Positions 15,067-57,034 of a DNA stretch of 64,000 bases are shown here, piece by piece. The notes beneath the pieces are model-generated. The model ran no database searches. It worked only from the letters and a program-made list of their open reading frames with translations, and was not told the DNA's origin. Position 1 is the stretch's first letter. Every line of letters starts with the position of its first letter. This stretch comes from Candidatus Sungiibacteriota bacterium (GTDB lineage: Bacteria; Patescibacteriota; Minisyncoccia; Sungbacterales; HO2-52-23): the NCBI GenBank assembly GCA_016180435.1, contig JACPBG010000002.1:60342-124341 (forward strand), given 5' to 3'. A program made the translations under genes and the position numbers.

Positions 15067-15666
15067 ATGCCAAAGGCAATTAAGAAAAAAATAGAAAGTA
15101 AGCCCGTGGAAAAAGAAGCGGAAACGCCGAAAAAGAAAGTTGAAGAAAAAGAAAATAAGATTAAAACCGCGGTGAAAGTAAAAAAACCTTCTAAACAGGG
15201 GGCAGAAGTTCCGGCACAAGAAATCTCGTCAGGATTCTCGGAACATAAAACGGATAAAGCAGAAAAGCCCAAAAAACCGGAGCGTTATTTTGAGGCGGTG
15301 GGCAGAAGAAAAACCGCAGTGGCTCGCGTGCGGTTATTTACCCGGCCCGGGGACTTTACGGTAAATGGCAGGTTATACAGTTTATATTTTCCGACTTTAA
15401 CGCTCCAGCAAATTATTGAGGATTCGTTGAAGAAAATGAAGCTTTTGGGAAGATTCAGGGTGTCAATTAAGGTCTCCGGCGGAGGAACTCATGCCCAAGC
15501 CGAGGCCATTCGCCACGGACTCGCGCGCTGTTTGGTTAAATTCAATCCGGATTTTCGCAAGCGTTTGCGACGTGCCGGATACATTACACGCGACCCACGC
15601 GCCAAAGAAAGGAAGAAATTCGGCTTGAAAAAGGCGCGTAAAGCTCCGCAGTGGGCGAAGCGGTAA
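15067..15666 (+). CDS. rpsI: Ribosomal protein S9 with a Lys/Glu-rich N-terminal extension.
   Basis: C-terminal RYFEAVGRRKTAVARVRLF...RRAGYITRDPRAKERKKFGLKKARKAPQWAKR. Confidence 0.9.
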   Translation: MPKAIKKKIESKPVEKEAETPKKKVEEKENKIKTAVKVKKPSKQGAEVPAQEISSGFSEHKTDKAEKPKKPERYFEAVGRRKTAVARVRLFTRPGDFTVNGRLYSLYFPTLTLQQIIEDSLKKMKLLGRFRVSIKVSGGGTHAQAEAIRHGLARCLVKFNPDFRKRLRRAGYITRDPRAKERKKFGLKKARKAPQWAKR

Positions 15667-15817
15667 TTGCGCTCCCCAGACACGCTGTCTGCATCAATGT
15701 TTATGAGGATTTTTGAAAAACACGGGTTCACGACAAAAGTATGAGAAGCGCACAAATAGCACCGCATACGCGGCGTCTTCAGGGATTTGAAAATAACTGA
15801 ATTTGAACAATAGCCGC

Positions 15818-15850
15818 GATGACCGCGGCTATTGTGTTATTATTACTTCT
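15818..15850 (+). terminator. Rho-independent terminator after rpsI (11-bp perfect stem caatagccgcg atga ccgcggctattg plus a T-rich tail).
   Basis: Read directly from the sequence. Confidence 0.65.
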
Positions 15851-15897
15851 ATGTTACTATTATTTCGGTTCATTTTCATAAATTATGGAGGAAGCAA

Positions 15898-16932
15898 ATG
15901 AGTGATAGGAAAGCACCGTATGACACCAATGAAGGAATTCAGCGTGCCGTCAAAACGTTGCATAAACTTAACGAGTTGGTGGCGAATCGCCATAGGGCTG
16001 GGTATGAAAGACATGAACGACTCAAGGAATTCTATGTCCTTGGACGGTGGCGTACTGACTCTTGTGGCAATTTTGGAAAGATCATCTCTGAGTTTATCCC
16101 GAAATTAAAGTTCCCCCAGATCCCCGACGTTTTAACCAACGAAGAGTTTTGGGCATTCTTGGGGGCGCAAGGGCTTGATGTTGAGAAAACCTTTGTTTCA
16201 AGCGGAATGTCGAACGACCTACCGCCTGATGACATCGTATGTTGTGTTTGCCAGCAGTCGTGGACTATTGAAAATTGCCATGACGTAGTTATCACCCATC
16301 AGCATCAGGATTTTTCATTGTCAGAGTTCGTTGGGAGACAGCTTTGGGAGGTACAACGGGTATACGGTATGCGAATTGATGCTTGCTACCGTATGCAGCC
16401 AGACATTCTTATTCGTAACGATCGATTCATTGATCTACGTCCGGAGCCAGAATTTGAAACGCTCAAAAGGAATGAGCATGGATGGGTGGGCAAAGAAGAT
16501 GGAGTTACGGAAAACTATGTGATTCAGTCAGGTGATGATGGGTTTTTCAACGTCTGGCATTTTCATCATCATGCGTGTAGTCGGAAAAAGCTCGAAGCTG
16601 ATATGCGGCAGCAATTCCGTGATGTACTCACAAAAGCGGGTTTTGCTAACACAATCCTCAAGTCAATTCCGAATCAGTATTGCCCATGTGAGCATTGTGC
16701 TCCGTGGTTCGTGGTACGGACTGAACATGGTACATTTACGATCGGATGGCGAAAGCGCGTCATCAATATCGATTGGAAGGCGACTGGTAAGAACTTTCTG
16801 CCGCTTTTCGACGATCAGGACGTTACGAAAGACAACCACTTGATTCATGCATGGGGTTACGAAAAAGCTACTGAATATTTTACGAGGATTAAGGGGTTTC
16901 TCATTCAGTCCGAGGCGTTAACTCAACGTTAA
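15898..16932 (+). CDS. Hypothetical Cys/His-rich protein, first gene of a putative accessory island.
   Basis: GGAGGAAGCAA Shine-Dalgarno then ATG. Motifs CCVCQQSW, HQHQ, WHFHHHAC, CPCEHC. Codon usage differs from the neighbours. No recognisable family. Confidence 0.5.
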   Translation: MSDRKAPYDTNEGIQRAVKTLHKLNELVANRHRAGYERHERLKEFYVLGRWRTDSCGNFGKIISEFIPKLKFPQIPDVLTNEEFWAFLGAQGLDVEKTFVSSGMSNDLPPDDIVCCVCQQSWTIENCHDVVITHQHQDFSLSEFVGRQLWEVQRVYGMRIDACYRMQPDILIRNDRFIDLRPEPEFETLKRNEHGWVGKEDGVTENYVIQSGDDGFFNVWHFHHHACSRKKLEADMRQQFRDVLTKAGFANTILKSIPNQYCPCEHCAPWFVVRTEHGTFTIGWRKRVINIDWKATGKNFLPLFDDQDVTKDNHLIHAWGYEKATEYFTRIKGFLIQSEALTQR

Positions 16933-17039
16933 ACAAGACTGCCTGGCTCTGCCAGCAGTTTTTATTTTCAAAAACCTAAAGTCCACCACGCCTCAAAGCA
17001 TTGCAGTGGGCGAAGAGATAGACTAGCTTTCGTATGTTG

Positions 17040-17080
17040 ACCCCAAAGACCGAACTAAAAAGTTTGGTCTTTTGGGTGAG
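17040..17080 (+). terminator. Hairpin (aagaccgaac taaaaa gtttggtctt) plus T-rich tail downstream of the 15898..16932 gene.
   Basis: Seen in the sequence. One G·U pair in the stem. Confidence 0.5.
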
Positions 17081-17136
17081 GGGTAGGCGGGGAAGACCGA
17101 AATATTCTTGAGTCTTGGGTGGGGAAAAGCCCCTAC

Positions 17137-17192
17137 TTGACAAATTACCGGGATTCCCGGTAAGATTAATTTAATATCTAATTCCCGGTATT
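17137..17192 (+). promoter_or_regulatory. TTGACA -35 box with a palindromic operator taccggga/ttcccggta in the spacer. A second ttcccggta half-site overlaps the Shine-Dalgarno/start region of the GHKL gene.
   Basis: ttgacaaattaccgggattcccggtaagattaatttaatatctaattcccggtatttATG. Confidence 0.5.
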
Positions 17193-17193
17193 T

Positions 17194-18156
17194 ATGAAAA
17201 TATATCTTCCCCATAGTGCATTTTTAGGGAATATTGATCCATTCCTGGCGGCCTTTGACCCTAGCCATAAGGAAAAGCTCGAAATTACCGCTAATAAAAA
17301 TTGGATTTTTGTTCACCCCGTTGTATTAGCAATGGTAGCGGCGTTAGGTTTAACAGTTTATCGAAAAAATATTAAATGTGAAAAGATAGTGGCACGTTCG
17401 GGTCACTACCTTGAAAGGATGGGTTTATTCAAATTTCTTGATATTAAATCAGGGATGAAGATAACCGAACACGATCCATCGGGGCGATTCGTTCCACTAA
17501 CACAGATAAAAACCTCTGAACAACTCACAAAGTTTCTAACCGAAATGATTCCACTGCTTCATTTAGAACCTCGACATGCCGAACCAATCAAATATATTAT
17601 TAGTGAATTGGTGAGAAACGTGTTAGAGCACGCTCGTGCACCACAAGGAGCTATCGTATCTGCTCAATATCATGCAAAAAATAAAACAATTCGCATAGGA
17701 ATAGTTGATCGTGGTAGTGGTATAAAAAGCACAATTAATCAATCATGGGATGCAAGTAATGATCTTGAGGCTATTAAGTTGGCACTTATGCCGGGAGTTA
17801 CAGGAACTACAAAAAGAGAAGGCGGAACAGAACAAAATGCTGGAGCAGGTTTATTTTTTATTAAATCAATTGCTTATGTGAATCGTAATTTTTTTATGAT
17901 CTATAGCGGAAACGCAATGTATAAACTTCTGAAAAGAAGTGGCGCTAAAAAAATTATGCTTCATGCTAACCCCAATCTTGACAGACACTCAGAAAGAAAT
18001 AACTTACCTTATTGGGATGGTACGGCGGTGGGTGTAGATATTTCTTTAGATACTACACAAGAATTTACTGCACTTCTTGATCTTATAAGAGATACTTACT
18101 CGGAGGCAGTTAAAGAGCGTAAGCGTAATAGATATAAAAGGGCTAAATTTATTTAA
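17194..18156 (+). CDS. GHKL-superfamily ATPase (histidine-kinase-like / anti-sigma Ser-kinase-like ATP-binding protein) with a ~110-aa N-terminal extension.
   Basis: N-box ELVRNVLEHA, G1 box VDRGSGI, G2 box GGTEQNAGAGLFFIKSIA. About 36% GC against a ~45% host background. Confidence 0.65.
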   Translation: MKIYLPHSAFLGNIDPFLAAFDPSHKEKLEITANKNWIFVHPVVLAMVAALGLTVYRKNIKCEKIVARSGHYLERMGLFKFLDIKSGMKITEHDPSGRFVPLTQIKTSEQLTKFLTEMIPLLHLEPRHAEPIKYIISELVRNVLEHARAPQGAIVSAQYHAKNKTIRIGIVDRGSGIKSTINQSWDASNDLEAIKLALMPGVTGTTKREGGTEQNAGAGLFFIKSIAYVNRNFFMIYSGNAMYKLLKRSGAKKIMLHANPNLDRHSERNNLPYWDGTAVGVDISLDTTQEFTALLDLIRDTYSEAVKERKRNRYKRAKFI

Positions 18157-18161
18157 ATATT

Positions 18162-18449
18162 ATGGTTACTATCGAACTTTTTCCCTTAGTGGGGGGCTTT
18201 GCGGAAAACAAGGATATTGCAAGAGACATAAGACGAGACCAAATTCTTCCAGCTCTGAAGAATGGAGAAAGTGTTGTCTTGGATTTTAGTGGCATAGAAT
18301 CTACAACACAATCTTTCGTTCACTCCTTAATTAGTGATGTAATGAGGGAATACGGGAGTGACGTTATGGATAAATTAGTATTTAAAAATTGCAGTGAAAC
18401 CATACAAAAAATCATCAGTATAGTTGTGGACTATATGCAGCAAACATAA
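18162..18449 (+). CDS. STAS-like domain protein (DUF4325-like), a putative partner of the upstream GHKL ATPase.
   Basis: 95 aa with a ...VVLDFSGIESTTQSFVHSLISDV... pattern typical of DUF4325 / anti-anti-sigma-like proteins. The 6-nt gap to 17194..18156 suggests an operon. Confidence 0.55.
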   Translation: MVTIELFPLVGGFAENKDIARDIRRDQILPALKNGESVVLDFSGIESTTQSFVHSLISDVMREYGSDVMDKLVFKNCSETIQKIISIVVDYMQQT

Positions 18450-18499
18450 TTTGTCTCAGTTAAAGACGTATTACGGTTCGCCCTGCGGAATTTTTTATA

Positions 18500-18545
18500 C
18501 GGACTTTTTATTTTCTCGCGTAAATTTTATTTGAAAAAACGCGAA
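18500..18545. terminator. Bidirectional terminator-like inverted repeat (ttttattttctcgcgt ... acgcgaaaataaaa) between convergent genes.
   Basis: Seen in the sequence. Confidence 0.5.
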
Positions 18546-18590
18546 AATAAAATGTCATCCGAAAGGATGACGTTTCTATATAGATACGCC

Positions 18591-19148
18591 CTAATGATAT
18601 GGAGAAAATGTCGCCTCTTTTAATCGCCAGTGTAATTTTATTCCCGCTTGATCTTCCGCAAAAATATCTTTCACGAAGTTGTCGAAACGAGCCGAGAATG
18701 GATACTTTTGCAAAGTAAGGTCGGCCAGAAGATGCAGCTTGTCTATCGGAAAGCGCTTCAGGCAAAATACATATGCCTCGGCAATGTCTGATCTTGAGCA
18801 TCCCTCGTCCCTTTCCCGCGGCCAGATACGATGCAGTACTGAAATCATCTTCAGTTTAAATTCGGAGTTTCCGAACCGCAAAAGAAAAAGAAGGAGCTGG
18901 CGGATTGTTCCTGCAAAAAAGATTTCCCAGCTCCTGCTTTTTCGTGCGGCTGAACCTTGTTTATAAAGACCCAATTTCCACCATAGTTCGGCGGGTCTGC
19001 TGTCCGGCATTTTCAGCACTTTCCATTGATATAACATCCAGTCAAGAACGCCGGGAACTGCAACCTCTTTTTGATAGCAGATTTTTTCTAAATCATGAAG
19101 CGCCAGTGGATACTTCTTTTTAAAAGTAGCACTTGTATGCCAAGGCAT
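18591..19148 (-). CDS. Hypothetical protein.
   Basis: 185-aa ORF convergent with the GHKL/STAS operon. No recognisable motif. Confidence 0.4.
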   Translation of the reverse strand: MPWHTSATFKKKYPLALHDLEKICYQKEVAVPGVLDWMLYQWKVLKMPDSRPAELWWKLGLYKQGSAARKSRSWEIFFAGTIRQLLLFLLRFGNSEFKLKMISVLHRIWPRERDEGCSRSDIAEAYVFCLKRFPIDKLHLLADLTLQKYPFSARFDNFVKDIFAEDQAGIKLHWRLKEATFSPYH

Positions 19149-19205
19149 TTATTTATCTCCTATAGCTGGTATGAGCTTCACACAAGATAACAAAAAAACG
19201 TTATT

Positions 19206-19514
19206 TTGTCAATCTTGCAAAATAGTACAGATTATGCTATTTTAGTTTTAGTTCATTTTTCGCGTAGGTGCAATATGTCTAGTTGGCTGGATACGGAAAA
19301 AGGTCAAGAATTTTTCAAAAAAGCCTTTGAGGTTGCCGATTTGCCGGAGGTTGATGGAGATGTCTTGGAGCAAGGCACATACACCAACCGTCAAATCGCC
19401 GAAAAAGCCGGAAGCCCAGAAAAATTGCTGTCATTGCTTATGAATGTATCCGGTGATCGGGCGACGAAAAGATCGATCCTTAGTTTCGCCGTGGAAATGG
19501 ATTTAGAAGATTAA
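19206..19514 (+). CDS. Hypothetical small acidic protein (start possibly 19275).
   Basis: ORF only. Confidence 0.3.
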   Translation: MSILQNSTDYAILVLVHFSRRCNMSSWLDTEKGQEFFKKAFEVADLPEVDGDVLEQGTYTNRQIAEKAGSPEKLLSLLMNVSGDRATKRSILSFAVEMDLED

Positions 19515-19554
19515 GTTTAGTAAGTTTTACCGCATGGTTTGCCCTGCGGCTTTT

Positions 19555-21375
19555 TTATTTAATAAACCGTTCCGCCTGCAGGGACCAAAGGCGTTTATAA
19601 ATTCCGCCGCGTGCGATTAAATCCAAATGTGTTCCTTCTTCCGCTATTTTTCCGCGGTCTATTACTATAATTCGATCCATCTGCATGATGGTGGAAAGGC
19701 GATGGGCAATTACGATCGCGGTTTTTTTCTTAAGCAAATTTTTTAAGGCATCCTGAATCAGCGCCTCTACTTCCGAGTCCAAACTTGAGGTTGCTTCGTC
19801 TAAAACCAAAATCGGCGTGTTGGCGAGGATGGCCCGCGCAATTGCTACTCTTTGCCGTTCTCCGCCGGAAAGTTTTACTCCGCGTTCTCCCACGTATGTG
19901 TCATAGCCATAAGGAAGCCGTGAAATAAATTCATGGCAGTGCGCTTTTTGGGCCGCATCCATGATCTCTTTTTCGGTCGCATTCAGGCGTCCGTAGCGTA
20001 TATTTTCGGTAAGGGTGCGGTGGAATAAAATGGTATCTTGCGGCACCAGCGCAACGGATGTGCGTATGCTGTCTTGCGTTACTTCGGCAATGTTTTGCCC
20101 GTCAATCATTATTTTTCCATTATTTATATCATGGAAACGCAAAAGAAGCGTTACCACCGTGGTTTTTCCGGCGCCGGATGATCCGACCAGCGCAATTTTT
20201 TCTCCGGGCTTGACGCGTAAACTGAAATTTTCAAGCACTTTGCGCTTATCATGAAATCCGAAAGTAACATTTTCAAATTCAACCATACCCCGGGAAACCG
20301 CAAGTTTTTTTGCGGAAGGCGCATCTTTTATATCCGGAGGTGTATTTAAAATTTCCACCATTTCAGCCGCATCGGCAAGCGACTCATAAACTCGGCGCAC
20401 CACCCGGCCAAAGTCCCAGATTCTGTGAAATAGCACGATCAAATACCCTTGAATCAGGGCAAAATCTCCGACGGTAACCTGGCCGCTTGACCAGAGCCGG
20501 ATCCAGGCATAAAACAAACCCACTTCAATTGCGATCATGAGAAGCGCTTGAATCCCGTCAGCTGCTTCTCCGATGCCCCATCCCCAAAAACGCAGGCGTT
20601 TTAATTCATTCATGACGTTACGGTAAATAGTTTTTTCATGATCATAATTGGAAAATAGTTTTATGGTAATGACGTTAGTCAGGGCGTCGGAAAGCGTTCC
20701 GGTTGCTTCCGAGTCCTTTTCGGCCCGGGCCCGGTCATATTTTAATTTCCAGCCCGCGATAAAATAATAGATGACTCCAAAGAGCAAAATCCAGATTGCC
20801 AAAGCAATTCCGAGGACGATGTGGCGTTTGAAAAGAACAATAAGTATCCCGGTAACTATGACAAAAAGCGGAATGATGCTGAATAAAATCTGATCGGTTA
20901 TCTCCTCAAACGAACGGGACAGGCGCGCCACCTTTCTTACCAGCGATCCGGTGAAATTGTTTGTAAAGAAGCGGTGCGAGTGCCCGAGTAGATTTGAGAA
21001 AGCGGTCAGGGACAGGTCATTCATCACGTTGGCCCGCATATATATATTTGCTATGCCGAACAGACGATGTATGGTCCAGCGCGATATTTCCAAAGCCGCG
21101 ATAATGCCGAGGATCCACATGAGTTGGCGGTTGATTTCTGCCGCTTGAAGCGCCGTATTCGTAACCGTGTCAAGAAACATTTTTAAGAACCAGGGCATGG
21201 TTACCGCAATAATCTGCATCGCGATTGCGGACAAGAAGACCACAATCGATGTCCCGGGATATTTTCGGGCGTGTTCCCAAAATACCCGCCATATCAGGCG
21301 AAGTGTATGGCGGTTTAATTCCGGCTTTTTTATTTTGGCGGATGCCAATTGCGTCATAACTCGATTTTTTTCCAT
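19555..21375 (-). CDS. ABC transporter, fused permease/ATP-binding exporter (MsbA-like).
   Basis: Walker A GSSGAGKTT, signature LSGGERQRVAIARAIL, Walker B LVLDEATSSLD, and six N-terminal TM helices. Confidence 0.9.
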   Translation of the reverse strand: MEKNRVMTQLASAKIKKPELNRHTLRLIWRVFWEHARKYPGTSIVVFLSAIAMQIIAVTMPWFLKMFLDTVTNTALQAAEINRQLMWILGIIAALEISRWTIHRLFGIANIYMRANVMNDLSLTAFSNLLGHSHRFFTNNFTGSLVRKVARLSRSFEEITDQILFSIIPLFVIVTGILIVLFKRHIVLGIALAIWILLFGVIYYFIAGWKLKYDRARAEKDSEATGTLSDALTNVITIKLFSNYDHEKTIYRNVMNELKRLRFWGWGIGEAADGIQALLMIAIEVGLFYAWIRLWSSGQVTVGDFALIQGYLIVLFHRIWDFGRVVRRVYESLADAAEMVEILNTPPDIKDAPSAKKLAVSRGMVEFENVTFGFHDKRKVLENFSLRVKPGEKIALVGSSGAGKTTVVTLLLRFHDINNGKIMIDGQNIAEVTQDSIRTSVALVPQDTILFHRTLTENIRYGRLNATEKEIMDAAQKAHCHEFISRLPYGYDTYVGERGVKLSGGERQRVAIARAILANTPILVLDEATSSLDSEVEALIQDALKNLLKKKTAIVIAHRLSTIMQMDRIIVIDRGKIAEEGTHLDLIARGGIYKRLWSLQAERFIK

Positions 21376-22460
21376 AATTTGTTTCTTCTTAAATATATGG
21401 ACCTTGGATAATCGGCGGCAGTCACCAGTTCATCAATTCTTTCACTGATCAGCTCGCCGGTATTTCTTCCTCCGCGTCCGTCAATCTCGGTAAAATATAC
21501 TCCGTCTTTGGTGAGCATGACAATATGAGCGTCGTCGTAATAATACCAGCGCGCATCCAGAATCGGTTCCTGCAGGGTTATAATCTGTTCTATTAGGCCC
21601 TTTTTTTGAAACGGCTGGTATTCATTATCCTGCAGCCATAATATTTCTATACTGTTTTCTTTTTTTAAGATAAGTTTTTCTCCTTCCGTATCAAATGAAA
21701 TTGCTTTAGCGCCTCCGGCCAGGGGTTTCAATTCATTGGTTTCACTTTCTATTATAAAAAGTCCTCCGCCGGCATCCAAAATCGCCAATTCGCTGCGCGG
21801 CGATATGAAAAATTGCGCCGGTATTTTGTCAGAAAGGAAAAATCCCGGTCGGCCCAGCGTTTCAATCATCCCGTTACTATTTAATTTTGCCGCAAAACCG
21901 GCTTCGGTAATAAAAAATATAGCGCCGTCGATATAGGCAAATGAATTCACTCCGGGTGTCAGCACGGTTGTCGTGGCGCGGCCGTTTAGCACGCGGTCTT
22001 CAACCAGATTGTTTTTTTTATCAAGCCGAATTTTACGCGCGGAAGTGGTAGTCGCCAATCCCAAAGATATGATTTCGTCGCGTGTTGCCGTGGCGGTCAT
22101 GACCGGTGAGGGGATCAGGATGACATTTCGTATTTCGGTTACGGCGGCTTTTTCCACGGTTACGGTTTTTGACCAAGGCCGGTAATTTTCCTTTTCCAGA
22201 CGTAGCAGATGTATGCCGGGCCTGATTTCGGTCAATAGCGCCCCGCCGGAAAAAATTGATGTCTCTTTCTGAAATTCGTTGTCCAGAAAAATTGAGATGC
22301 TTGCGATCGTGGATTTTATAAAAATACCGCCGCGCTGCTCCAGCGAGCGTGATGATAAATTGATCGTATAGCCGAGCGAATGAGCAATTACTATCGGCAA
22401 AAGCACGATAAATGCGGCCAGCAGGAGATAAAAAATTTTTTTTCTGGTTGCCAGCTTCAT
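21354..22460 (-). CDS. Membrane-anchored hypothetical protein with a PEGA-like segment.
   Basis: N-terminal TM helix. ENYRPWSKTVTVEKAAVTEIRNVIL resembles a PEGA domain. Confidence 0.45.
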   Translation of the reverse strand: MKLATRKKIFYLLLAAFIVLLPIVIAHSLGYTINLSSRSLEQRGGIFIKSTIASISIFLDNEFQKETSIFSGGALLTEIRPGIHLLRLEKENYRPWSKTVTVEKAAVTEIRNVILIPSPVMTATATRDEIISLGLATTTSARKIRLDKKNNLVEDRVLNGRATTTVLTPGVNSFAYIDGAIFFITEAGFAAKLNSNGMIETLGRPGFFLSDKIPAQFFISPRSELAILDAGGGLFIIESETNELKPLAGGAKAISFDTEGEKLILKKENSIEILWLQDNEYQPFQKKGLIEQIITLQEPILDARWYYYDDAHIVMLTKDGVYFTEIDGRGGRNTGELISERIDELVTAADYPRSIYLRRNKLWKKIEL

Positions 22461-25161: not shown

Positions 25162-25812
25162 ATGATAATAAAAAAATTTTTACATTCCTGTATTTTACTT
25201 GAGGAACAAGGGCGAAGACTCCTTATTGACCCCGGTGATATGTCGTTTTTCGAGAAGAAAATATCACCCGAAGATATCGGTGGGGCGGATGTTATAGTTT
25301 TTACTCATAGGCATAGTGACCATTTAGATCTAGACATATTAAAAAAATTTTTAAGTTTGAAACAAGCTAAAATTTTGGCTCATGAAGAAATTGGTAAAAA
25401 ACTAAAGGAGTCGGATATTCCATACACATCGATATCTGCGGGTGAGACGAAAATAGTTGAAGGATTTACTATCGAAACAATTGAGGCGCCGCATGGACAT
25501 GGTTTAAGTGTGCCCTCGCCGTATAATCTCGGCTTTAAAATAGACAATGCATTTTTTCATCCCGGCGACTGTGTCTCGTTAGAAAACATTGAAACTAAAG
25601 TTTTGGCACTTCCCGTTATGGGTTCTTGGATGCGTTTTCCGGAGGCAGTATTATTTGCTAAACGAGTAAAGCCACAGTATGTAATTCCTATTCATGATGC
25701 ACTTATTGGGGACGTATTCATTGATAGGGTTTACGACTATTATCGAGGGCCATTAGAAAAAGACGGCATTTCCTTTTATCAGCTTGGATTAGATAATTCG
25801 CTTGAGATATAA
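25162..25812 (+). CDS. MBL-fold metallo-hydrolase.
   Basis: FTHRHSDHLD (HxHxDH) motif. Confidence 0.7.
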   Translation: MIIKKFLHSCILLEEQGRRLLIDPGDMSFFEKKISPEDIGGADVIVFTHRHSDHLDLDILKKFLSLKQAKILAHEEIGKKLKESDIPYTSISAGETKIVEGFTIETIEAPHGHGLSVPSPYNLGFKIDNAFFHPGDCVSLENIETKVLALPVMGSWMRFPEAVLFAKRVKPQYVIPIHDALIGDVFIDRVYDYYRGPLEKDGISFYQLGLDNSLEI

Positions 25813-32738: not shown

Positions 32739-33056
32739 ATGCCTAAAGAAAATAAATTCAACAAGCCTTCAGAAGAAATCTTTCCCCGGCCTGAGAAGAA
32801 AGTGGTTTTTCTTATGAAACTAAGAAAAGAACTAAAAGTGTTTAGTGATTCGGTATTAGTAATCGATATGGCGAAATATAACGAAGAAAATAACCCACAC
32901 GGGGAAAGAGCAGACATAGCTGTATTGGTAAAGAAAAATCTTAAAGATGTAAAAGATTATCTTGAGGGCGAAGCTGGATTTAAAATAATAAGGGAAGGCC
33001 CAAGCCCAATATTTAGTAAAGATGATACTGCGTTTTGGCTCAAGATAACCGATTGA
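32739..33056 (+). CDS. Hypothetical protein.
   Basis: ORF only. Confidence 0.35.
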   Translation: MPKENKFNKPSEEIFPRPEKKVVFLMKLRKELKVFSDSVLVIDMAKYNEENNPHGERADIAVLVKKNLKDVKDYLEGEAGFKIIREGPSPIFSKDDTAFWLKITD

Positions 33057-53612: not shown

Positions 53613-53966
53613 TTATTGATGCCGTATAGCCTTTTTTATCATTCGTTTATATCGCCAATACATTTTTGGTAGCTCATGGATATTAAACCAGTTAGGAGAT
53701 AGTCCTACCCTTTTTTGTTTTTGCTTAAGTAGCCCGCCTATAATTCTTACGACAAAACAGAATTCCTGGTCAGTTACATGGTCCACCCTATTAGATGTTT
53801 TAACTATTAATTCGGTTTCTTCTGCAAATTCTCTACAAGTTGCTGCATTGGCGTCTTCCCCGATTTTTAATTTACCGCCGGGCGGCCTCCATGATCCATT
53901 TTCGTAAATGAGCAAAACGTATTTTTTTTCTTTATCAAGGCAGATTCCTCTCGAACTGTTTTTCAA
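53613..53966 (-). CDS. NUDIX hydrolase.
   Basis: Nudix box GGKLKIGEDANAATCREFAEETEL. Confidence 0.75.
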   Translation of the reverse strand: MKNSSRGICLDKEKKYVLLIYENGSWRPPGGKLKIGEDANAATCREFAEETELIVKTSNRVDHVTDQEFCFVVRIIGGLLKQKQKRVGLSPNWFNIHELPKMYWRYKRMIKKAIRHQ

Positions 53967-55749: not shown

Positions 55750-55986
55750 TTAATCTGGAGAAGGAGGATTTTTTGGATAGTATATATTGTCAGCCGAAAT
55801 GTGATCGATCAAAGCGATTAATCCGACCAGGATAAGGGCGACAATCAATGGAGAAATCCAGTCAAAATAAAACTCAATGTTTGCTGCAGCTTTTGCCCGG
55901 GAGAGTGCCGTAACGAAACCCTCTAATTTCTCGGTAGTTAAGCCCAAGAATATAAAAGTTCCAATCACAGTATATTTTGCTAACAT
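55750..55986 (-). CDS. Small hypothetical membrane protein.
   Basis: Two predicted TM helices. Start MLAKYTVIG. Confidence 0.35.
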   Translation of the reverse strand: MLAKYTVIGTFIFLGLTTEKLEGFVTALSRAKAAANIEFYFDWISPLIVALILVGLIALIDHISADNIYYPKNPPSPD

Positions 55987-56004
55987 TGTGATACCTCTAA
56001 ATAA

Positions 56005-56023
56005 AGTGCTATAATTAGCATAT
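56005..56023 (+). promoter_or_regulatory. Extended -10 promoter (TGcTATAAT) for gap, giving a near-leaderless transcript.
   Basis: agtgctataattagcatatATG: the -10 box lies only ~8 nt upstream of the ATG. Confidence 0.45.
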
Positions 56024-57034
56024 ATGAAACCCACAAAAATTGCAATAAATGGTTTTGGTCGCATCGGCCGCTCGTTTTTCCGGGATACGTTTGAATTGCC
56101 TGGATTGGATGTGGTTGCGGTAAATGATCTTACTGATCCAAAGACATTGGCATATCTTTTAAAATACGACAGCGTTTACGGCCGTTATTCCAAGTCCGTT
56201 GAGGCTAAAGATGGTCATTTTACCGTGGATGGGCAGGAGATAAAAGTATATGCGGAAAAAGATCCCGCGCGCCTGCCGTGGAAAGAACTCGGCATTGATA
56301 TCGTGGTAGAATCCACCGGTTTTTTTGCCGATGGCGCCAAAGCCAAAGCTCATTTGGATGCCGGAGCCAAACGCGTGGTTATAACAGCTCCGGCTAAAGG
56401 AGATGTGGTAACCGCGCTTGTAGGAGTTAATGATGACCGGTTTGACGGCAAAAATCCGATTACTTGCAATGCATCCTGCACCACTAATTCCGTGGCTCCG
56501 GTTATGCAGATTATGCTGGATAATTTCGGAGTGAAGCGCGCAGTAATGACCACGGTTCACGGATACACCGCGACCCAAAAATTGGTTGATGGGCCGGATG
56601 AAAAAGATCCTCGTCGGGGACGCGCAGCCGCGGCAAATATCGTGCCATCCACAACCGGTGCTGCCGAGGCGGTGATTAAATCAATTCCAGAATTGGAAGG
56701 AAAATTCCAAGCAGAATCTGTGCGCGTGCCGACAATTACGGGGTCCTTGAGCATTATGACGGTAATGACCGAGAAAAAGGCATCAGAAAAAGAAGTAAAT
56801 GACGTTTTTCGGAAATCCGCCCAAGACCCGCGCTGGTCAAAAATCTTGAAAGTTATCGAAGACCCGATTGTATCATCTGACATTATAGGCGAGCCGTATG
56901 GAGCGATTGTGGATTTGACACTTACTCGTACTCTCGGTGACGATCTTGTCAAAGTTTTTTCATGGTACGACAACGAAGCTGGCTACACCGCGACATTGGT
57001 GGAGCATGTGAGGAGGATTGCGGAAAATTTATAA
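56024..57034 (+). CDS. gap: Glyceraldehyde-3-phosphate dehydrogenase.
   Basis: KIAINGFGRIGR NAD fold. The catalytic Cys lies within a C(T/N)ASCTTN-like segment (NASCTTNS). Confidence 0.9.
   Translation: MKPTKIAINGFGRIGRSFFRDTFELPGLDVVAVNDLTDPKTLAYLLKYDSVYGRYSKSVEAKDGHFTVDGQEIKVYAEKDPARLPWKELGIDIVVESTGFFADGAKAKAHLDAGAKRVVITAPAKGDVVTALVGVNDDRFDGKNPITCNASCTTNSVAPVMQIMLDNFGVKRAVMTTVHGYTATQKLVDGPDEKDPRRGRAAAANIVPSTTGAAEAVIKSIPELEGKFQAESVRVPTITGSLSIMTVMTEKKASEKEVNDVFRKSAQDPRWSKILKVIEDPIVSSDIIGEPYGAIVDLTLTRTLGDDLVKVFSWYDNEAGYTATLVEHVRRIAENL

What the first reader, a model, noticed from the sequence alone, without database searches (positions are those of the whole stretch)
15700..18450. Compositionally foreign three-gene island after rpsI: Cys/His-rich protein, GHKL ATPase and STAS-like DUF4325 protein
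The island lies between the rpsI terminator (15818..15850) and a bidirectional terminator (18500..18545). The first gene, a 345-aa protein, has no recognisable family. It carries CCVCQQSW, WHFHHHAC and CPCEHC metal-binding-like motifs and has its own terminator. The next two genes form a tight operon at about 36% GC, against a ~45% host background:
- a 320-aa protein whose C-terminal half has the N, G1 and G2 boxes of GHKL ATPases, with a novel ~110-aa N-terminal domain
- a 95-aa STAS-like DUF4325 protein

A TTGACA promoter upstream of the operon has a perfect palindromic operator (taccggga/ttcccggta) in its spacer. The third half-site in the region overlaps the start of the GHKL gene.

The GHKL-plus-STAS pairing recalls RsbW/RsbV partner switching, but the architecture and context suggest a horizontally acquired module. 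It could be a regulatory or a defence module.
Basis: partly seen in the sequence, partly recalled or inferred. Interest (0 to 1): 0.75.

Follow-up and report, generated by a model that had tools for sequence, protein, structure and literature searches.

The report
Mobile self-regulated kinase–STAS gene pair
Two of the three flagged genes form a small, horizontally transferred cassette: a protein kinase, its small partner protein and their own on/off DNA switch. The cassette recurs almost unchanged in hundreds of bacterial and archaeal species and is an undescribed two-gene relative of a stress-sensing immune module reported in 2026.

Summary
The "three-gene island" is really two things.

**Gene A (15898-16932, Cys/His-rich)** is a resident gene specific to Patescibacteria. 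It has host-like GC and sits after rpsI in the closest relative too.

**The foreign unit** is a 1.3-kb two-gene cassette (17137-18449):
- K is a 320-aa protein with a STAS-like N-domain, a SpoIIAB-like GHKL kinase domain and a basic C-terminal helix.
- S is a 95-aa DUF4325 STAS protein.
- Its GC3 is 26% against 44% for the window, and it is absent from the relative.

K and S are homologous to VapK/VapS and CapK/CapS (Chambers et al., EMBO J 2026). They lack the PIN toxin, the wHTH domain and any conserved downstream operon.

Relatives at 63-75% identity occur in 442 species genomes. These span CPR, DPANN, Thermoplasmatota, Elusimicrobia, Omnitrophota and Proteobacteria. The pair is always together, and the neighbours are never conserved.

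In bacteria it sits in the −35/−10 spacer. In archaea it sits beside a TATA box.

Best reading: an autorepressed, stress-triggered kinase/STAS switch with a toxin-antitoxin-like or defence role. The output and the operator-binding subunit are unresolved. It is a new variant of a known kind.

The parts
15807..15845 (+). rpsI terminator-like hairpin plus T-rich tail. This is context and not part of the cassette.
   Evidence: 12-pair stem, 7 GC pairs.
15898..16932 (+). Gene A: a resident, Patescibacteria-specific 344-aa protein with a putative zinc site (invariant C116, C119, H225, C228). It is NOT part of the cassette.
   Evidence: 169 homologues, and every source name given is Patescibacteria; these are solitary genes in varied contexts; syntenic after rpsI in relative L099; host-like GC; invariant Cys/His; no family or PDB match.
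16943..16965 (+). Gene A terminator-like hairpin. Colinearity with the relative ends at about 16963, which marks the left edge of the variable segment.
   Evidence: (blastn colinear block 15832-16963).
17137..17166 (+). Cassette promoter: -35 TTGACA (17137-17142), 18-nt spacer, -10 TAAGAT (17161-17166).
   Evidence: The distance from the -35 to the palindrome centre (17 nt) is the same as in bacterial-type relatives.
17145..17163 (.). Operator palindrome TTACCGGGA-T-TCCCGGTAA (core TACCGGGAWTCCCGGTA, 17146-17162). It fills the promoter spacer and overlaps the -10.
   Evidence: Conserved upstream of the cassette in 71 of 82 loci, with 95 hits in 16.4 kb upstream against 3 in 808 kb elsewhere.
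17181..17190 (+). Solo operator half-site ATTCCCGGTA, 28 nt after the copy inside the palindrome and ending 3 nt before the ATG.
   Evidence: D3, spacing 28. The same solo half-site at -11 to -14 appears in many archaeal-type loci and some bacterial-type loci.
17194..18156 (+). K: a 320-aa CapK/VapK-like protein. It has a STAS-like N-domain (1-105), a GHKL kinase domain (108-245; N box E138/N142, G1 D172xGxG176, G2 G217xG219), a beta-hairpin (265-284) and a family-specific basic C-terminal helix (288-320).
18162..18449 (+). S: a 95-aa STAS-like DUF4325 protein. The invariant T49-Q-S51-F motif lies at the position of the VapS phospho-serine. It has no wHTH and no VapC-binding tail.
   Evidence: hhalign to VapS, 86.5%, E 4.6e-6. 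VapS is also PF14213; an S gene follows K in 78 of 82 loci.
18477..18571 (.). Convergent terminator-like hairpins (18477-18489 on +, 18554-18571 on -) that close the cassette.
   Evidence: Nothing is conserved downstream of S across loci.

Best explanation
Positions 17137-18449 are a self-contained, horizontally mobile two-gene cassette with its own promoter and operator. It belongs to the CapK-CapS / VapK-VapS kind.

Shown:
- K and S are always adjacent, usually translationally coupled, and have no conserved third gene.
- The 17-bp palindrome is carried with them into both bacterial and archaeal promoters, so a cassette-encoded factor must read it (autoregulation).
- K has an intact SpoIIAB-like ATP-binding kinase domain fused to a STAS-like N-domain.
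- S is a DUF4325 STAS protein with an invariant Thr/Ser motif at the phospho-acceptor position.

Inferred by homology to CapK/VapK:
- At rest, K and S keep their own promoter repressed.
- A stress signal, most likely single-stranded DNA from DNA damage or phage infection, activates K.
- K then phosphorylates S on T49 or S51, which breaks the resting complex and de-represses the operon.

Inferred, least certain:
- There is no toxin, no DNA-binding domain on S and no regulated neighbour. The output must therefore lie in the pair itself.
- I favour a toxin-antitoxin-like or abortive-defence module. In it the basic kinase K (pI about 9.5) is the effector and probably the operator binder, through its family-specific basic C-terminal module. 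The acidic S (pI about 5.4) restrains it.
For: Cassette unit:
- 442 species genomes encode K relatives at 63-75% identity.
- S follows K in 78 of 82 loci, with an ATGA overlap in 69.
- No other gene family recurs in more than 7 of 81 loci, and nothing is conserved downstream of S.

Operator:
- 95 palindrome hits in 16.4 kb of upstream regions against 3 in 808 kb elsewhere.
- Placement is stereotyped. In bacteria the centre is 17 nt after the -35 start, with a second site 28 nt upstream. In archaea the centre is 20 nt before the TATA box, with a half-site at -12.
- A 46%-identical subfamily has a diverged site at the same promoter positions.

Foreignness:
- GC3 is 0.26 against 0.44, and the cassette is absent from the syntenic relative L099.
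- Cassette GC is below flank GC in 63 of 75 loci.

Homology:
- hhalign gives VapK 95.9%, CapK 91.8% including the YLxRxGFF N-domain motif, and VapS 86.5%.
- VapS and S are both PF14213.
- Experimental precedent for ssDNA-activated K phosphorylating S comes from PMC13373217.

Conflict context:
- The PADLOC DrmA model has K-like and S-like regions at its N-terminus.
- There is a full-length PHROG match and a PHROG match to a K-S fusion.
- Distant K+S pairs sit in Streptococcus prophage accessory loci, and a distant K homologue sits alone beside a BrnT/BrnA toxin-antitoxin pair on a 6.8-kb Acinetobacter plasmid.
- A minority of neighbours are AbiEii-like ATPases, integrases, PIN or Fic proteins.

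Toxin-antitoxin-like traits: a basic K and an acidic S, translational coupling, and a palindromic operator over the promoter.
Against: - No recognisable DNA-binding domain is present in either protein, so the operator reader is unassigned. Residue/operator covariation was uninformative.
- No toxin or effector domain is present, and a cellular target of K is purely hypothetical.
- The VapS Ser48 aligns to Q50 of S. The invariant T49 and S51 only flank it.
- The N-domain modelled on its own was low confidence (pLDDT 57), so the STAS fold of K's N-domain rests on sequence alignment to CapK and on secondary-structure order.
- Only about one in ten immediate neighbours is defence- or mobility-related.
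- Only 3 hits were found in the viral contig collection.
- A distant prophage K has an acidic C-terminus rather than a basic one, which weakens the C-tail DNA-binding idea.
- Nothing here is experimental.
Confidence: 0.6

Rival explanations
1. CapKS-type controller. K and S are transcriptional regulators of an adjacent operon, immune or otherwise. S or K represses the neighbour's promoter until K is activated.
For: CapK/CapS do exactly this and are homologous. A few neighbours are defence genes.
Against: - No gene family recurs next to the pair, at most 7 of 81 loci.
- No operator copies lie downstream of S. The 3 non-upstream hits in 808 kb are all outside that position.
- No conserved k-mers occur downstream.
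- S lacks the wHTH that makes CapS a repressor.
- In the window the next gene is convergent and has no operator.
Confidence: 0.1
2. Ordinary host partner-switching module (RsbW/RsbV- or SpoIIAB/SpoIIAA-like). K sequesters a host transcription factor and S is its antagonist, serving host physiology rather than conflict.
For: The best structural matches are anti-sigma kinases. NCBIfam gives weak hits to SpoIIAB and RsbW. Source annotations read 'anti-sigma regulatory factor'.
Against: - The cassette occurs with 63-78% identity in archaea, which lack sigma factors, and in very different bacterial phyla.
- No sigma factor or PP2C phosphatase recurs nearby.
- It is foreign in composition and absent from the closest relative.
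- K carries extra domains that RsbW lacks.
Confidence: 0.1
3. Purely selfish addiction cassette. The K/S pair stabilises whatever replicon or island carries it by post-segregational growth arrest, with no role in phage defence or stress sensing.
For: - It has a two-gene, autoregulated, translationally coupled architecture with a basic and an acidic partner.
- Horizontal transfer is rampant and neighbours vary.
- A distant K homologue sits on a 6.8-kb plasmid beside BrnT/BrnA.
Against: - The homologue VapKSC protects against phage and responds to DNA damage.
- The CapK lysines K237 and K239, predicted to contact ssDNA, fall beside the invariant K162 of K in the alignment.
- Most copies are chromosomal, in tiny CPR and DPANN genomes.
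Confidence: 0.15
4. One reading: a three-gene acquired island in which the Cys/His-rich protein works with the GHKL and STAS proteins.
For: The genes are adjacent and on the same strand.
Against: - Gene A has host-like GC and its own SD and terminator.
- It is syntenic after rpsI in L099, which lacks K and S.
- Its homologues are solitary.
- None of the 80 K/S loci carries a gene A homologue.
Confidence: 0.02

Closest known systems
VapKSC (VapK kinase, VapS STAS antitoxin, VapC PIN toxin; Chambers et al., EMBO J 2026, PMC13373217)
   Same: - K aligns to VapK over the GHKL domain (hhalign 95.9%, E 5e-9) and has the same STAS-like-plus-GHKL layout without an N-terminal HTH.
- S and VapS are both PF14213 DUF4325 and align.
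- The gene order is K then S.
   Different: - No VapC/PIN gene. PIN appears in only 2 of 143 neighbours.
- S stops where the VapC-inhibiting C-tail of VapS (94-116) begins.
- K has an extra insertion at about 250-266 and a basic C-terminal helix that VapK lacks.
- It carries a conserved palindromic operator and occurs in archaea. Neither is mentioned in the parts of that paper I read.
CapK-CapS (controller of adjacent immune operons; same paper)
   Same: - A kinase-plus-STAS pair with autoregulation through palindromes. Both 'narrow' 1-bp-spaced and widely spaced half-site arrangements occur, as here.
- The N-domain YLxRxGFF motif and the kinase N and G1 boxes align.
   Different: - CapK has an N-terminal HTH and CapS has a C-terminal wHTH that binds TTAA half-sites. 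Neither domain is present here.
- There is no conserved downstream operon and no operator downstream of S.
SpoIIAB-SpoIIAA and RsbW-RsbV anti-sigma partner switching
   Different: There is no sigma factor or PP2C phosphatase partner. K is twice the size, with added N- and C-terminal domains. The cassette is present in archaea and is mobile and self-regulated.
HipBA-type kinase toxin-antitoxin modules
   Same: A two-gene operon in which a protein kinase is paired with a small partner and the operon is autorepressed through palindromic operators over its promoter (established knowledge of HipBA).
   Different: The kinase fold is unrelated (HipA is PI3/4-kinase-like). HipB is an HTH antitoxin encoded first, whereas here the kinase is first and neither protein has an HTH.
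K-S fusions at the N-terminus of DISARM DrmA-like helicases (PADLOC model PDLC02567) and PHROG 5816
   Same: K matches model positions 34-248 and S matches positions 323-389 of the 1750-position DrmA model. phrog_5816 (441 positions) matches both K and S.
   Different: In those cases the module is fused to an effector or is a single polypeptide. Here it is free-standing as two genes with no helicase.

Membership tests
CapK/VapK-type STAS-GHKL kinases | GHKL kinase domain with intact N, G1 and G2 boxes, closest to anti-sigma kinases | tested here: met
CapK/VapK-type STAS-GHKL kinases | STAS-like domain directly N-terminal to the kinase domain | tested here: inconclusive
   - hhalign aligns K residues 68-128 to CapK 133-205, inside the region its authors call STAS.
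- The full-length model shows a beta-alpha-beta-alpha-beta-alpha-beta order with pLDDT about 90 for residues 1-60.
- The isolated N-domain model was poor (pLDDT 57), so no fold search was possible.
- There is no Pfam hit.
CapK | N-terminal HTH domain | tested here: not met
   K starts directly with the first strand of the STAS-like domain. CapK has about 55 extra N-terminal residues in the alignment.
CapS | STAS domain followed by a DNA-binding wHTH | tested here: not met
   S is 95 aa, and relatives are 94-106 aa. Only DUF4325/STAS is detected.
CapKS system | Lies upstream of a regulated operon whose promoter carries the same operator | tested here: not met
   No conserved neighbour. No palindrome downstream of S in 82 loci. 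No conserved downstream k-mers.
VapKSC system | Third gene encoding a VapC-like PIN toxin | tested here: not met
   The window has none. PIN is found in 2 of 143 immediate neighbours.
VapS | C-terminal helix (residues 94-116) that inhibits VapC | tested here: not met
   S ends at the residue that aligns to about VapS 90.
VapS/CapS | Conserved Ser/Thr phospho-acceptor at the start of STAS helix 2 | tested here: inconclusive
   T49, Q50, S51 and F52 are invariant in 24 sequences. VapS S48 aligns to Q50, so the acceptor would be T49 or S51, one residue off.
Pfam PF14213 (DUF4325, STAS-like) | Score above the gathering threshold | tested here: met
   58.8 bits against a cut-off of 23.
Anti-sigma partner switching (RsbW/RsbV, SpoIIAB/SpoIIAA) | Cognate sigma factor and PP2C phosphatase in the module or regulon | tested here: not met
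   No recurrent neighbour family, at most 5 of 143. The cassette is common in archaea, which have no sigma factors.
Type II toxin-antitoxin modules | Two-gene operon autorepressed through an operator overlapping its promoter | tested here: met
   Architecture and operator placement are conserved. Repression itself is inferred.
Type II toxin-antitoxin modules | One product is toxic and is neutralised by the other | not testable with these tools
   Needs expression assays.
DISARM DrmA | DrmA helicase core | tested here: not met
   K and S match only the N-terminal 34-389 of the 1750-position PADLOC model.

The most novel reading that the evidence does not exclude
The K/S pair is a previously unrecognised, effector-less class of cross-domain mobile conflict module. 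In this reading the kinase K is sensor, effector and operator-binding repressor at once, using its family-specific C-terminal basic module, and the STAS protein S is its antitoxin and substrate. The mostly leaderless, operator-embedded promoter design lets the same cassette work in both Bacteria and Archaea, which would explain its spread through CPR and DPANN genomes.
Probability: 0.25. Interest if true: 0.8.

Novelty: new variant of a known kind. Interest (0 to 1): 0.66.

Why it matters
- CapK/CapS and VapKSC were described only in 2026, and only in bacteria. They were described as accessories to an effector, either an immune operon or a PIN toxin.
- This cassette shows the kinase/STAS switch can exist alone. 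It moves between bacteria and archaea at about 65-78% protein identity and keeps one operator while its core promoter is rebuilt for each domain's transcription machinery.
- That gives a natural minimal system for asking three questions: what the kinase/STAS pair does by itself, how a protein without a known DNA-binding domain reads a 17-bp palindrome, and how a regulated gene cassette stays functional across the bacterial-archaeal divide.
- It also adds a candidate conflict system to CPR and DPANN genomes.

Tried and rejected
- **Three-gene island.** Rejected by synteny with L099 and by gene A contexts.
- **Known defence system.** PADLOC gives only a partial hit to the N-terminus of one DrmA model and a weak PDC-M65A hit. 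It is not DISARM.
- **RNA element or attenuator reading of the palindrome.** Rejected. In bacterial-type loci the palindrome lies between -35 and -10 and so is not transcribed. Rfam finds nothing.
- **tRNA-linked integration.** No tRNA is present in the window. A tRNA-Gly abuts the cassette in Zambryskibacteria, but this is not general.
- **Assigning the operator reader by covariation.** I compared operator variants (CCAGG in L043 and L054, CCGGC in L081) with protein residues. There were too few variants. Only K position 165 changed in both groups, which is not convincing.
- **Folding the isolated N-domain.** The model was low confidence and was not used for fold search.
- **afdb50 fold search.** The library was unavailable. 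Foldseek against the PDB added only Topo VI-B and SpoIIAB.
- **Sequence searches of PDB.** K, S and gene A profiles gave no significant hits.
- **Trans regulon.** No second operator copy exists in the 64-kb window.
- **Viral origin.** Only 3 viral contigs were found, at 46% identity.
Full report
**What is in the sequence.**

The window comes from a Candidatus Sungbacteria (Patescibacteria/CPR) genome, according to the source names of identical proteins. Downstream of rplM and rpsI lie three same-strand ORFs.
- Gene A is at 15898-16932 (344 aa, preceded by a GGAGG Shine-Dalgarno).
- K is at 17194-18156 (320 aa).
- S is at 18162-18449 (95 aa).

- Terminator-like hairpins follow rpsI (15807-15835) and gene A (16943-16955).
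- A TTGACA-18-TAAGAT promoter lies at 17137-17166.
- A perfect 9+9 palindrome, TTACCGGGA/TCCCGGTAA, lies at 17145-17163 inside the spacer.
- A further ATTCCCGGTA half-site lies at 17181-17190, 28 nt after the copy inside the palindrome.
- The palindrome is unique in the 64 kb.
- K matches HATPase_c_2 and S matches DUF4325. Gene A matches nothing.

**The island is two genes, not three.**

K and S are compositional outliers. K has GC 0.371 and GC3 0.262, a z-score of -3.2 and the lowest of 64 ORFs. S has GC 0.368. Gene A is host-like, with GC 0.445 and GC3 0.46.

The closest relative available is contig L099, whose gene A is 78% identical. Its gene order is rpsM-rpsK-rpsD-rpoA-rplQ-rplM-rpsI-gene A. 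It is colinear with the window up to 16963 and again from about 21440 onward (a 368-aa gene, murA, mreB). Between those points it carries a single DUF2238 gene. The window instead carries K, S, two small ORFs and an ABC transporter.

Gene A homologues number 169, and every source name given is Patescibacteria. They are solitary genes in unrelated contexts. None of the 80 K/S loci contains one. Gene A is therefore a resident lineage-specific gene. Its invariant C116, C119, H225 and C228 suggest a zinc site. It has no PDB relative by sequence.

**The cassette elsewhere.**

K has 3100 database relatives. The best 120 are 65-76% identical and carry names from CPR phyla, Omnitrophota, WOR-1, Nanoarchaeota and Diapherotrites. 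An exhaustive profile search gives 3691 representative clusters at E ≤ 1e-3 and 115 at E ≤ 1e-30.

In one-genome-per-species GTDB contigs, 442 loci encode a relative. The best 80 are 63-75% identical. They span CPR, DPANN, Thermoplasmatota, contigs binned as Methanosarcinales, Elusimicrobia, Omnitrophota, Saganbacteria, Gamma- and Deltaproteobacteria and Planctomycetia.

In 78 of 82 loci a 94-106-aa S gene follows K. The four exceptions run off contig ends or have less than 260 nt left. In 69 loci the start of S overlaps the K stop codon by 4 nt.

All-against-all clustering of 899 neighbouring ORFs finds only K (81 loci) and S shared. The next family reaches 7 loci. No k-mer is conserved downstream of S.

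Immediate neighbours are heterogeneous. A minority are conflict or mobility genes: AbiEii-like AAA_21 in 5, phage integrase in 4, Fic in 2, PIN in 2, and PADLOC AriA, GajA, PtuA, SspH and mad3/mad8 hits.

Cassette GC is below flank GC in 63 of 75 loci, with a median difference of -4 points, yet it tracks the host (r = 0.84).

**The operator is the key feature.**

The 110 nt upstream of K contain TACCGGGAWTCCCGGTA in almost every locus. Allowing up to 2 mismatches, there are 95 hits in 16.4 kb of upstream sequence (71 of 82 loci). The remaining 808 kb hold 3. Most of the remaining loci carry the same half-sites widely spaced or sequence variants of them, for example L005, L023, L037 and L039.

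Placement is stereotyped.
- In bacterial-type loci the palindrome centre lies 17 nt after the start of a TTGACA -35. It fills the spacer and its last bases form the start of the -10 (…CCCGGTATAAT).
- A second palindrome or half-site lies 28 nt upstream.
- In archaeal-type loci the palindrome centre lies 20 nt upstream of a TTTATAAATA TATA box.
- A solo half-site in archaeal-type loci sits at -11 to -14 from the ATG.

Apart from the four CPR loci with widely spaced half-sites, TATA-type promoters are on archaeal-labelled contigs. Most -35-type promoters are on bacterial-labelled contigs. In most loci the distance from the -10 or the TATA box to the start codon implies a leaderless mRNA. This is an inference from spacing.

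The window belongs to a minority with a leader of about 21 nt that carries the extra half-site. L067 has the same arrangement.

A more distant subfamily on viral contigs (46% identity) has a different repeated site at the same two promoter positions. So operator and proteins appear to have diverged together.

An element kept through a change of core promoter type cannot depend on host factors. A cassette product must read it. It is not transcribed in the bacterial arrangement, so it acts as DNA rather than RNA.

**What the proteins are.**

The AlphaFold model of K (pLDDT 79, pTM 0.84) shows four parts.
- An alpha/beta N-domain (1-105).
- A GHKL domain (108-245), with a disordered ATP-lid at 204-217.
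- A long beta-hairpin (265-284).
- A long C-terminal helix (288-315) ending in a basic tail.

The only literature that joins STAS, GHKL and defence is Chambers et al., EMBO J 2026 (PMC13373217).
- CapK (HTH-STAS-GHKL) is activated by ssDNA. It phosphorylates Ser54 of CapS (STAS-wHTH), which releases CapS from palindromic operators and de-represses an adjacent immune operon.
- In VapKSC, VapK (STAS-GHKL) is proposed to phosphorylate VapS. VapS is shown to be the antitoxin of the PIN toxin VapC.

I extracted VapS, VapK and CapK sequences from that paper's supplementary files.
- The K profile aligns to VapK at 95.9% probability, E 5e-9.
- It aligns to CapK at 91.8% probability. That alignment includes the N-domain motif YLxRxGFF.
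- The S profile aligns to VapS at 86.5% probability, E 4.6e-6.
- VapS is itself PF14213.

The invariant TQSF of S (T49, S51) brackets the position of VapS Ser48. CapK's predicted ssDNA-contacting lysines, K237 and K239, align beside the invariant K162 of K.

The differences are clear.
- There is no HTH on K.
- There is no wHTH and no VapC-binding tail on S.
- There is no PIN gene.
- K has an insertion at about 250-266 and a C-terminal helix with a basic tail (…KERKxxRYKxxKFI). Both are absent from VapK and CapK but present throughout this family.

K is basic (median pI 9.55) and S is acidic (median pI 5.4).

**How it most likely works.**

Shown:
- The unit is an autonomous, transferable promoter-operator-K-S cassette.
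- K is an intact anti-sigma-type ATP-binding kinase domain fused to a CapK-like N-domain.
- S is a VapS-like STAS protein.

Inferred by homology:
- K binds S and phosphorylates it at T49 or S51 when activated, plausibly by ssDNA.
- This switch controls occupancy of the operator and hence cassette expression.

Inferred with least support:
- Nothing else is conserved and no operator exists elsewhere. The biological output must therefore be produced by K and/or S themselves.
- Several traits point to a toxin-antitoxin-like or abortive-defence module with K as effector. These are the two-gene, translationally coupled, basic/acidic, autorepressed design, the rampant transfer and the conflict-system relatives.
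- Those relatives include K-S regions at the N-terminus of a PADLOC DrmA model, PHROG families 3364 and 5816, and K+S pairs in Streptococcus prophage accessory loci.
- A distant K homologue also sits alone on a small Acinetobacter plasmid beside BrnT/BrnA.

The operator reader is unresolved. I favour K's family-specific C-terminal module, because it is the only addition relative to VapK and CapK and K is the basic partner. One distant prophage K has an acidic tail, and the CapS precedent makes S the repressor.

**Comparison and novelty.**

The pair is a member of the CapK/VapK-CapS/VapS superfamily. It fails the defining features of both described systems: it has no wHTH and no regulated operon, and it has no PIN toxin and no inhibitory tail. 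It is not an RsbW/RsbV module either, having no sigma factor or phosphatase and being present in archaea.

In the parts of the 2026 paper I read and term-searched, I found no two-gene free-standing form, no archaeal or CPR/DPANN distribution and no cross-domain operator. 'Archaea' occurs there only in a reference title. I found nothing elsewhere in the held literature. I therefore rate it a new variant of a known kind, of moderate-to-high interest.

Noticed in passing
window 15067-15666: rpsI encodes 199 aa with a Lys/Glu-rich N-terminal extension of about 70 aa. The orthologue in relative L099 is only 138 aa.
   Followed up: no
window 15832-16963 vs L099 6182-7314: Gene A and its flanks are 75% identical in DNA to the relative. 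The neighbouring ribosomal-protein genes and rpoA are only about 65% identical (aa 44-65% against 78%). Gene A is therefore unusually conserved, or was exchanged between these lineages.
   Followed up: partly
window 17040-17077: A 17-nt-arm inverted repeat (ACCCCAAAGACCGAACT/AGTTTGGTCTTTTGGGT, 88% complementary) lies between the end of synteny and the cassette promoter. It has no T-run. It could be an insertion scar or a reverse-strand element.
   Followed up: no
window 16964-21400: The whole segment between gene A and the 368-aa gene is replaced in relative L099 by a single DUF2238 gene. In the window it holds the cassette, a 185-aa ORF (18591-19148, minus strand), a small ORF (19206-19514) and an ABC transporter (19555-21375, minus strand). 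This looks like a local variable hotspot. The two small ORFs have no family.
   Followed up: partly
L005 7811-7884; L008 65-1651: In Zambryskibacteria the cassette promoter starts about 60 nt after a tRNA-Gly(GCC) gene. One variant contig has a large serine recombinase about 1.8 kb upstream of K, beyond the UPF0102 gene.
   Followed up: partly
L005, L023, L037, L039 (upstream 70 nt of K): A CPR sub-group has no narrow palindrome. Instead the two half-sites (ACCGGGAAT … ATTCCCGG) lie about 38 nt apart, with the second abutting the ATG. This is reminiscent of the 'wide' and 'narrow' palindromes described for CapS.
   Followed up: partly
L096-L098 (IMG/VR contigs), 60 nt upstream of K: The 46%-identical viral-contig relatives carry a different 17-nt site (ATACCCGTAGATCGTAT and its inverted copy). 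It sits at the same two promoter positions, upstream of the -35 and in the spacer overlapping the -10.
   Followed up: partly
PADLOC model PDLC02567 (DrmA), positions 34-389: One DISARM DrmA profile contains K-like and S-like regions at its N-terminus. Some DrmA helicases therefore appear to carry a fused kinase-STAS module.
   Followed up: no
immediate neighbours of K/S in L011-L090: Five neighbour proteins hit the PADLOC MADS models mad3 and mad8, and five hit AriA/AAA_21. I did not resolve which loci these are, or whether they form complete systems.
   Followed up: no
window 25162-25812, 32739-33056, 53613-53966, 55750-56064: Other ORFs with GC or GC3 about 2 SD below the window mean, including a metallo-beta-lactamase-fold gene with a faint anti-Pycsar Apyc1 Pfam hint in the database annotation. 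These may be further acquired genes.
   Followed up: no
L101 (Streptococcus phage phiGBSVK-D) 2887-4076: A distant K (298 aa, acidic C-terminus) plus a 99-aa partner sit between the lysis genes and paratox. This is the usual accessory-gene slot of streptococcal prophages.
   Followed up: partly
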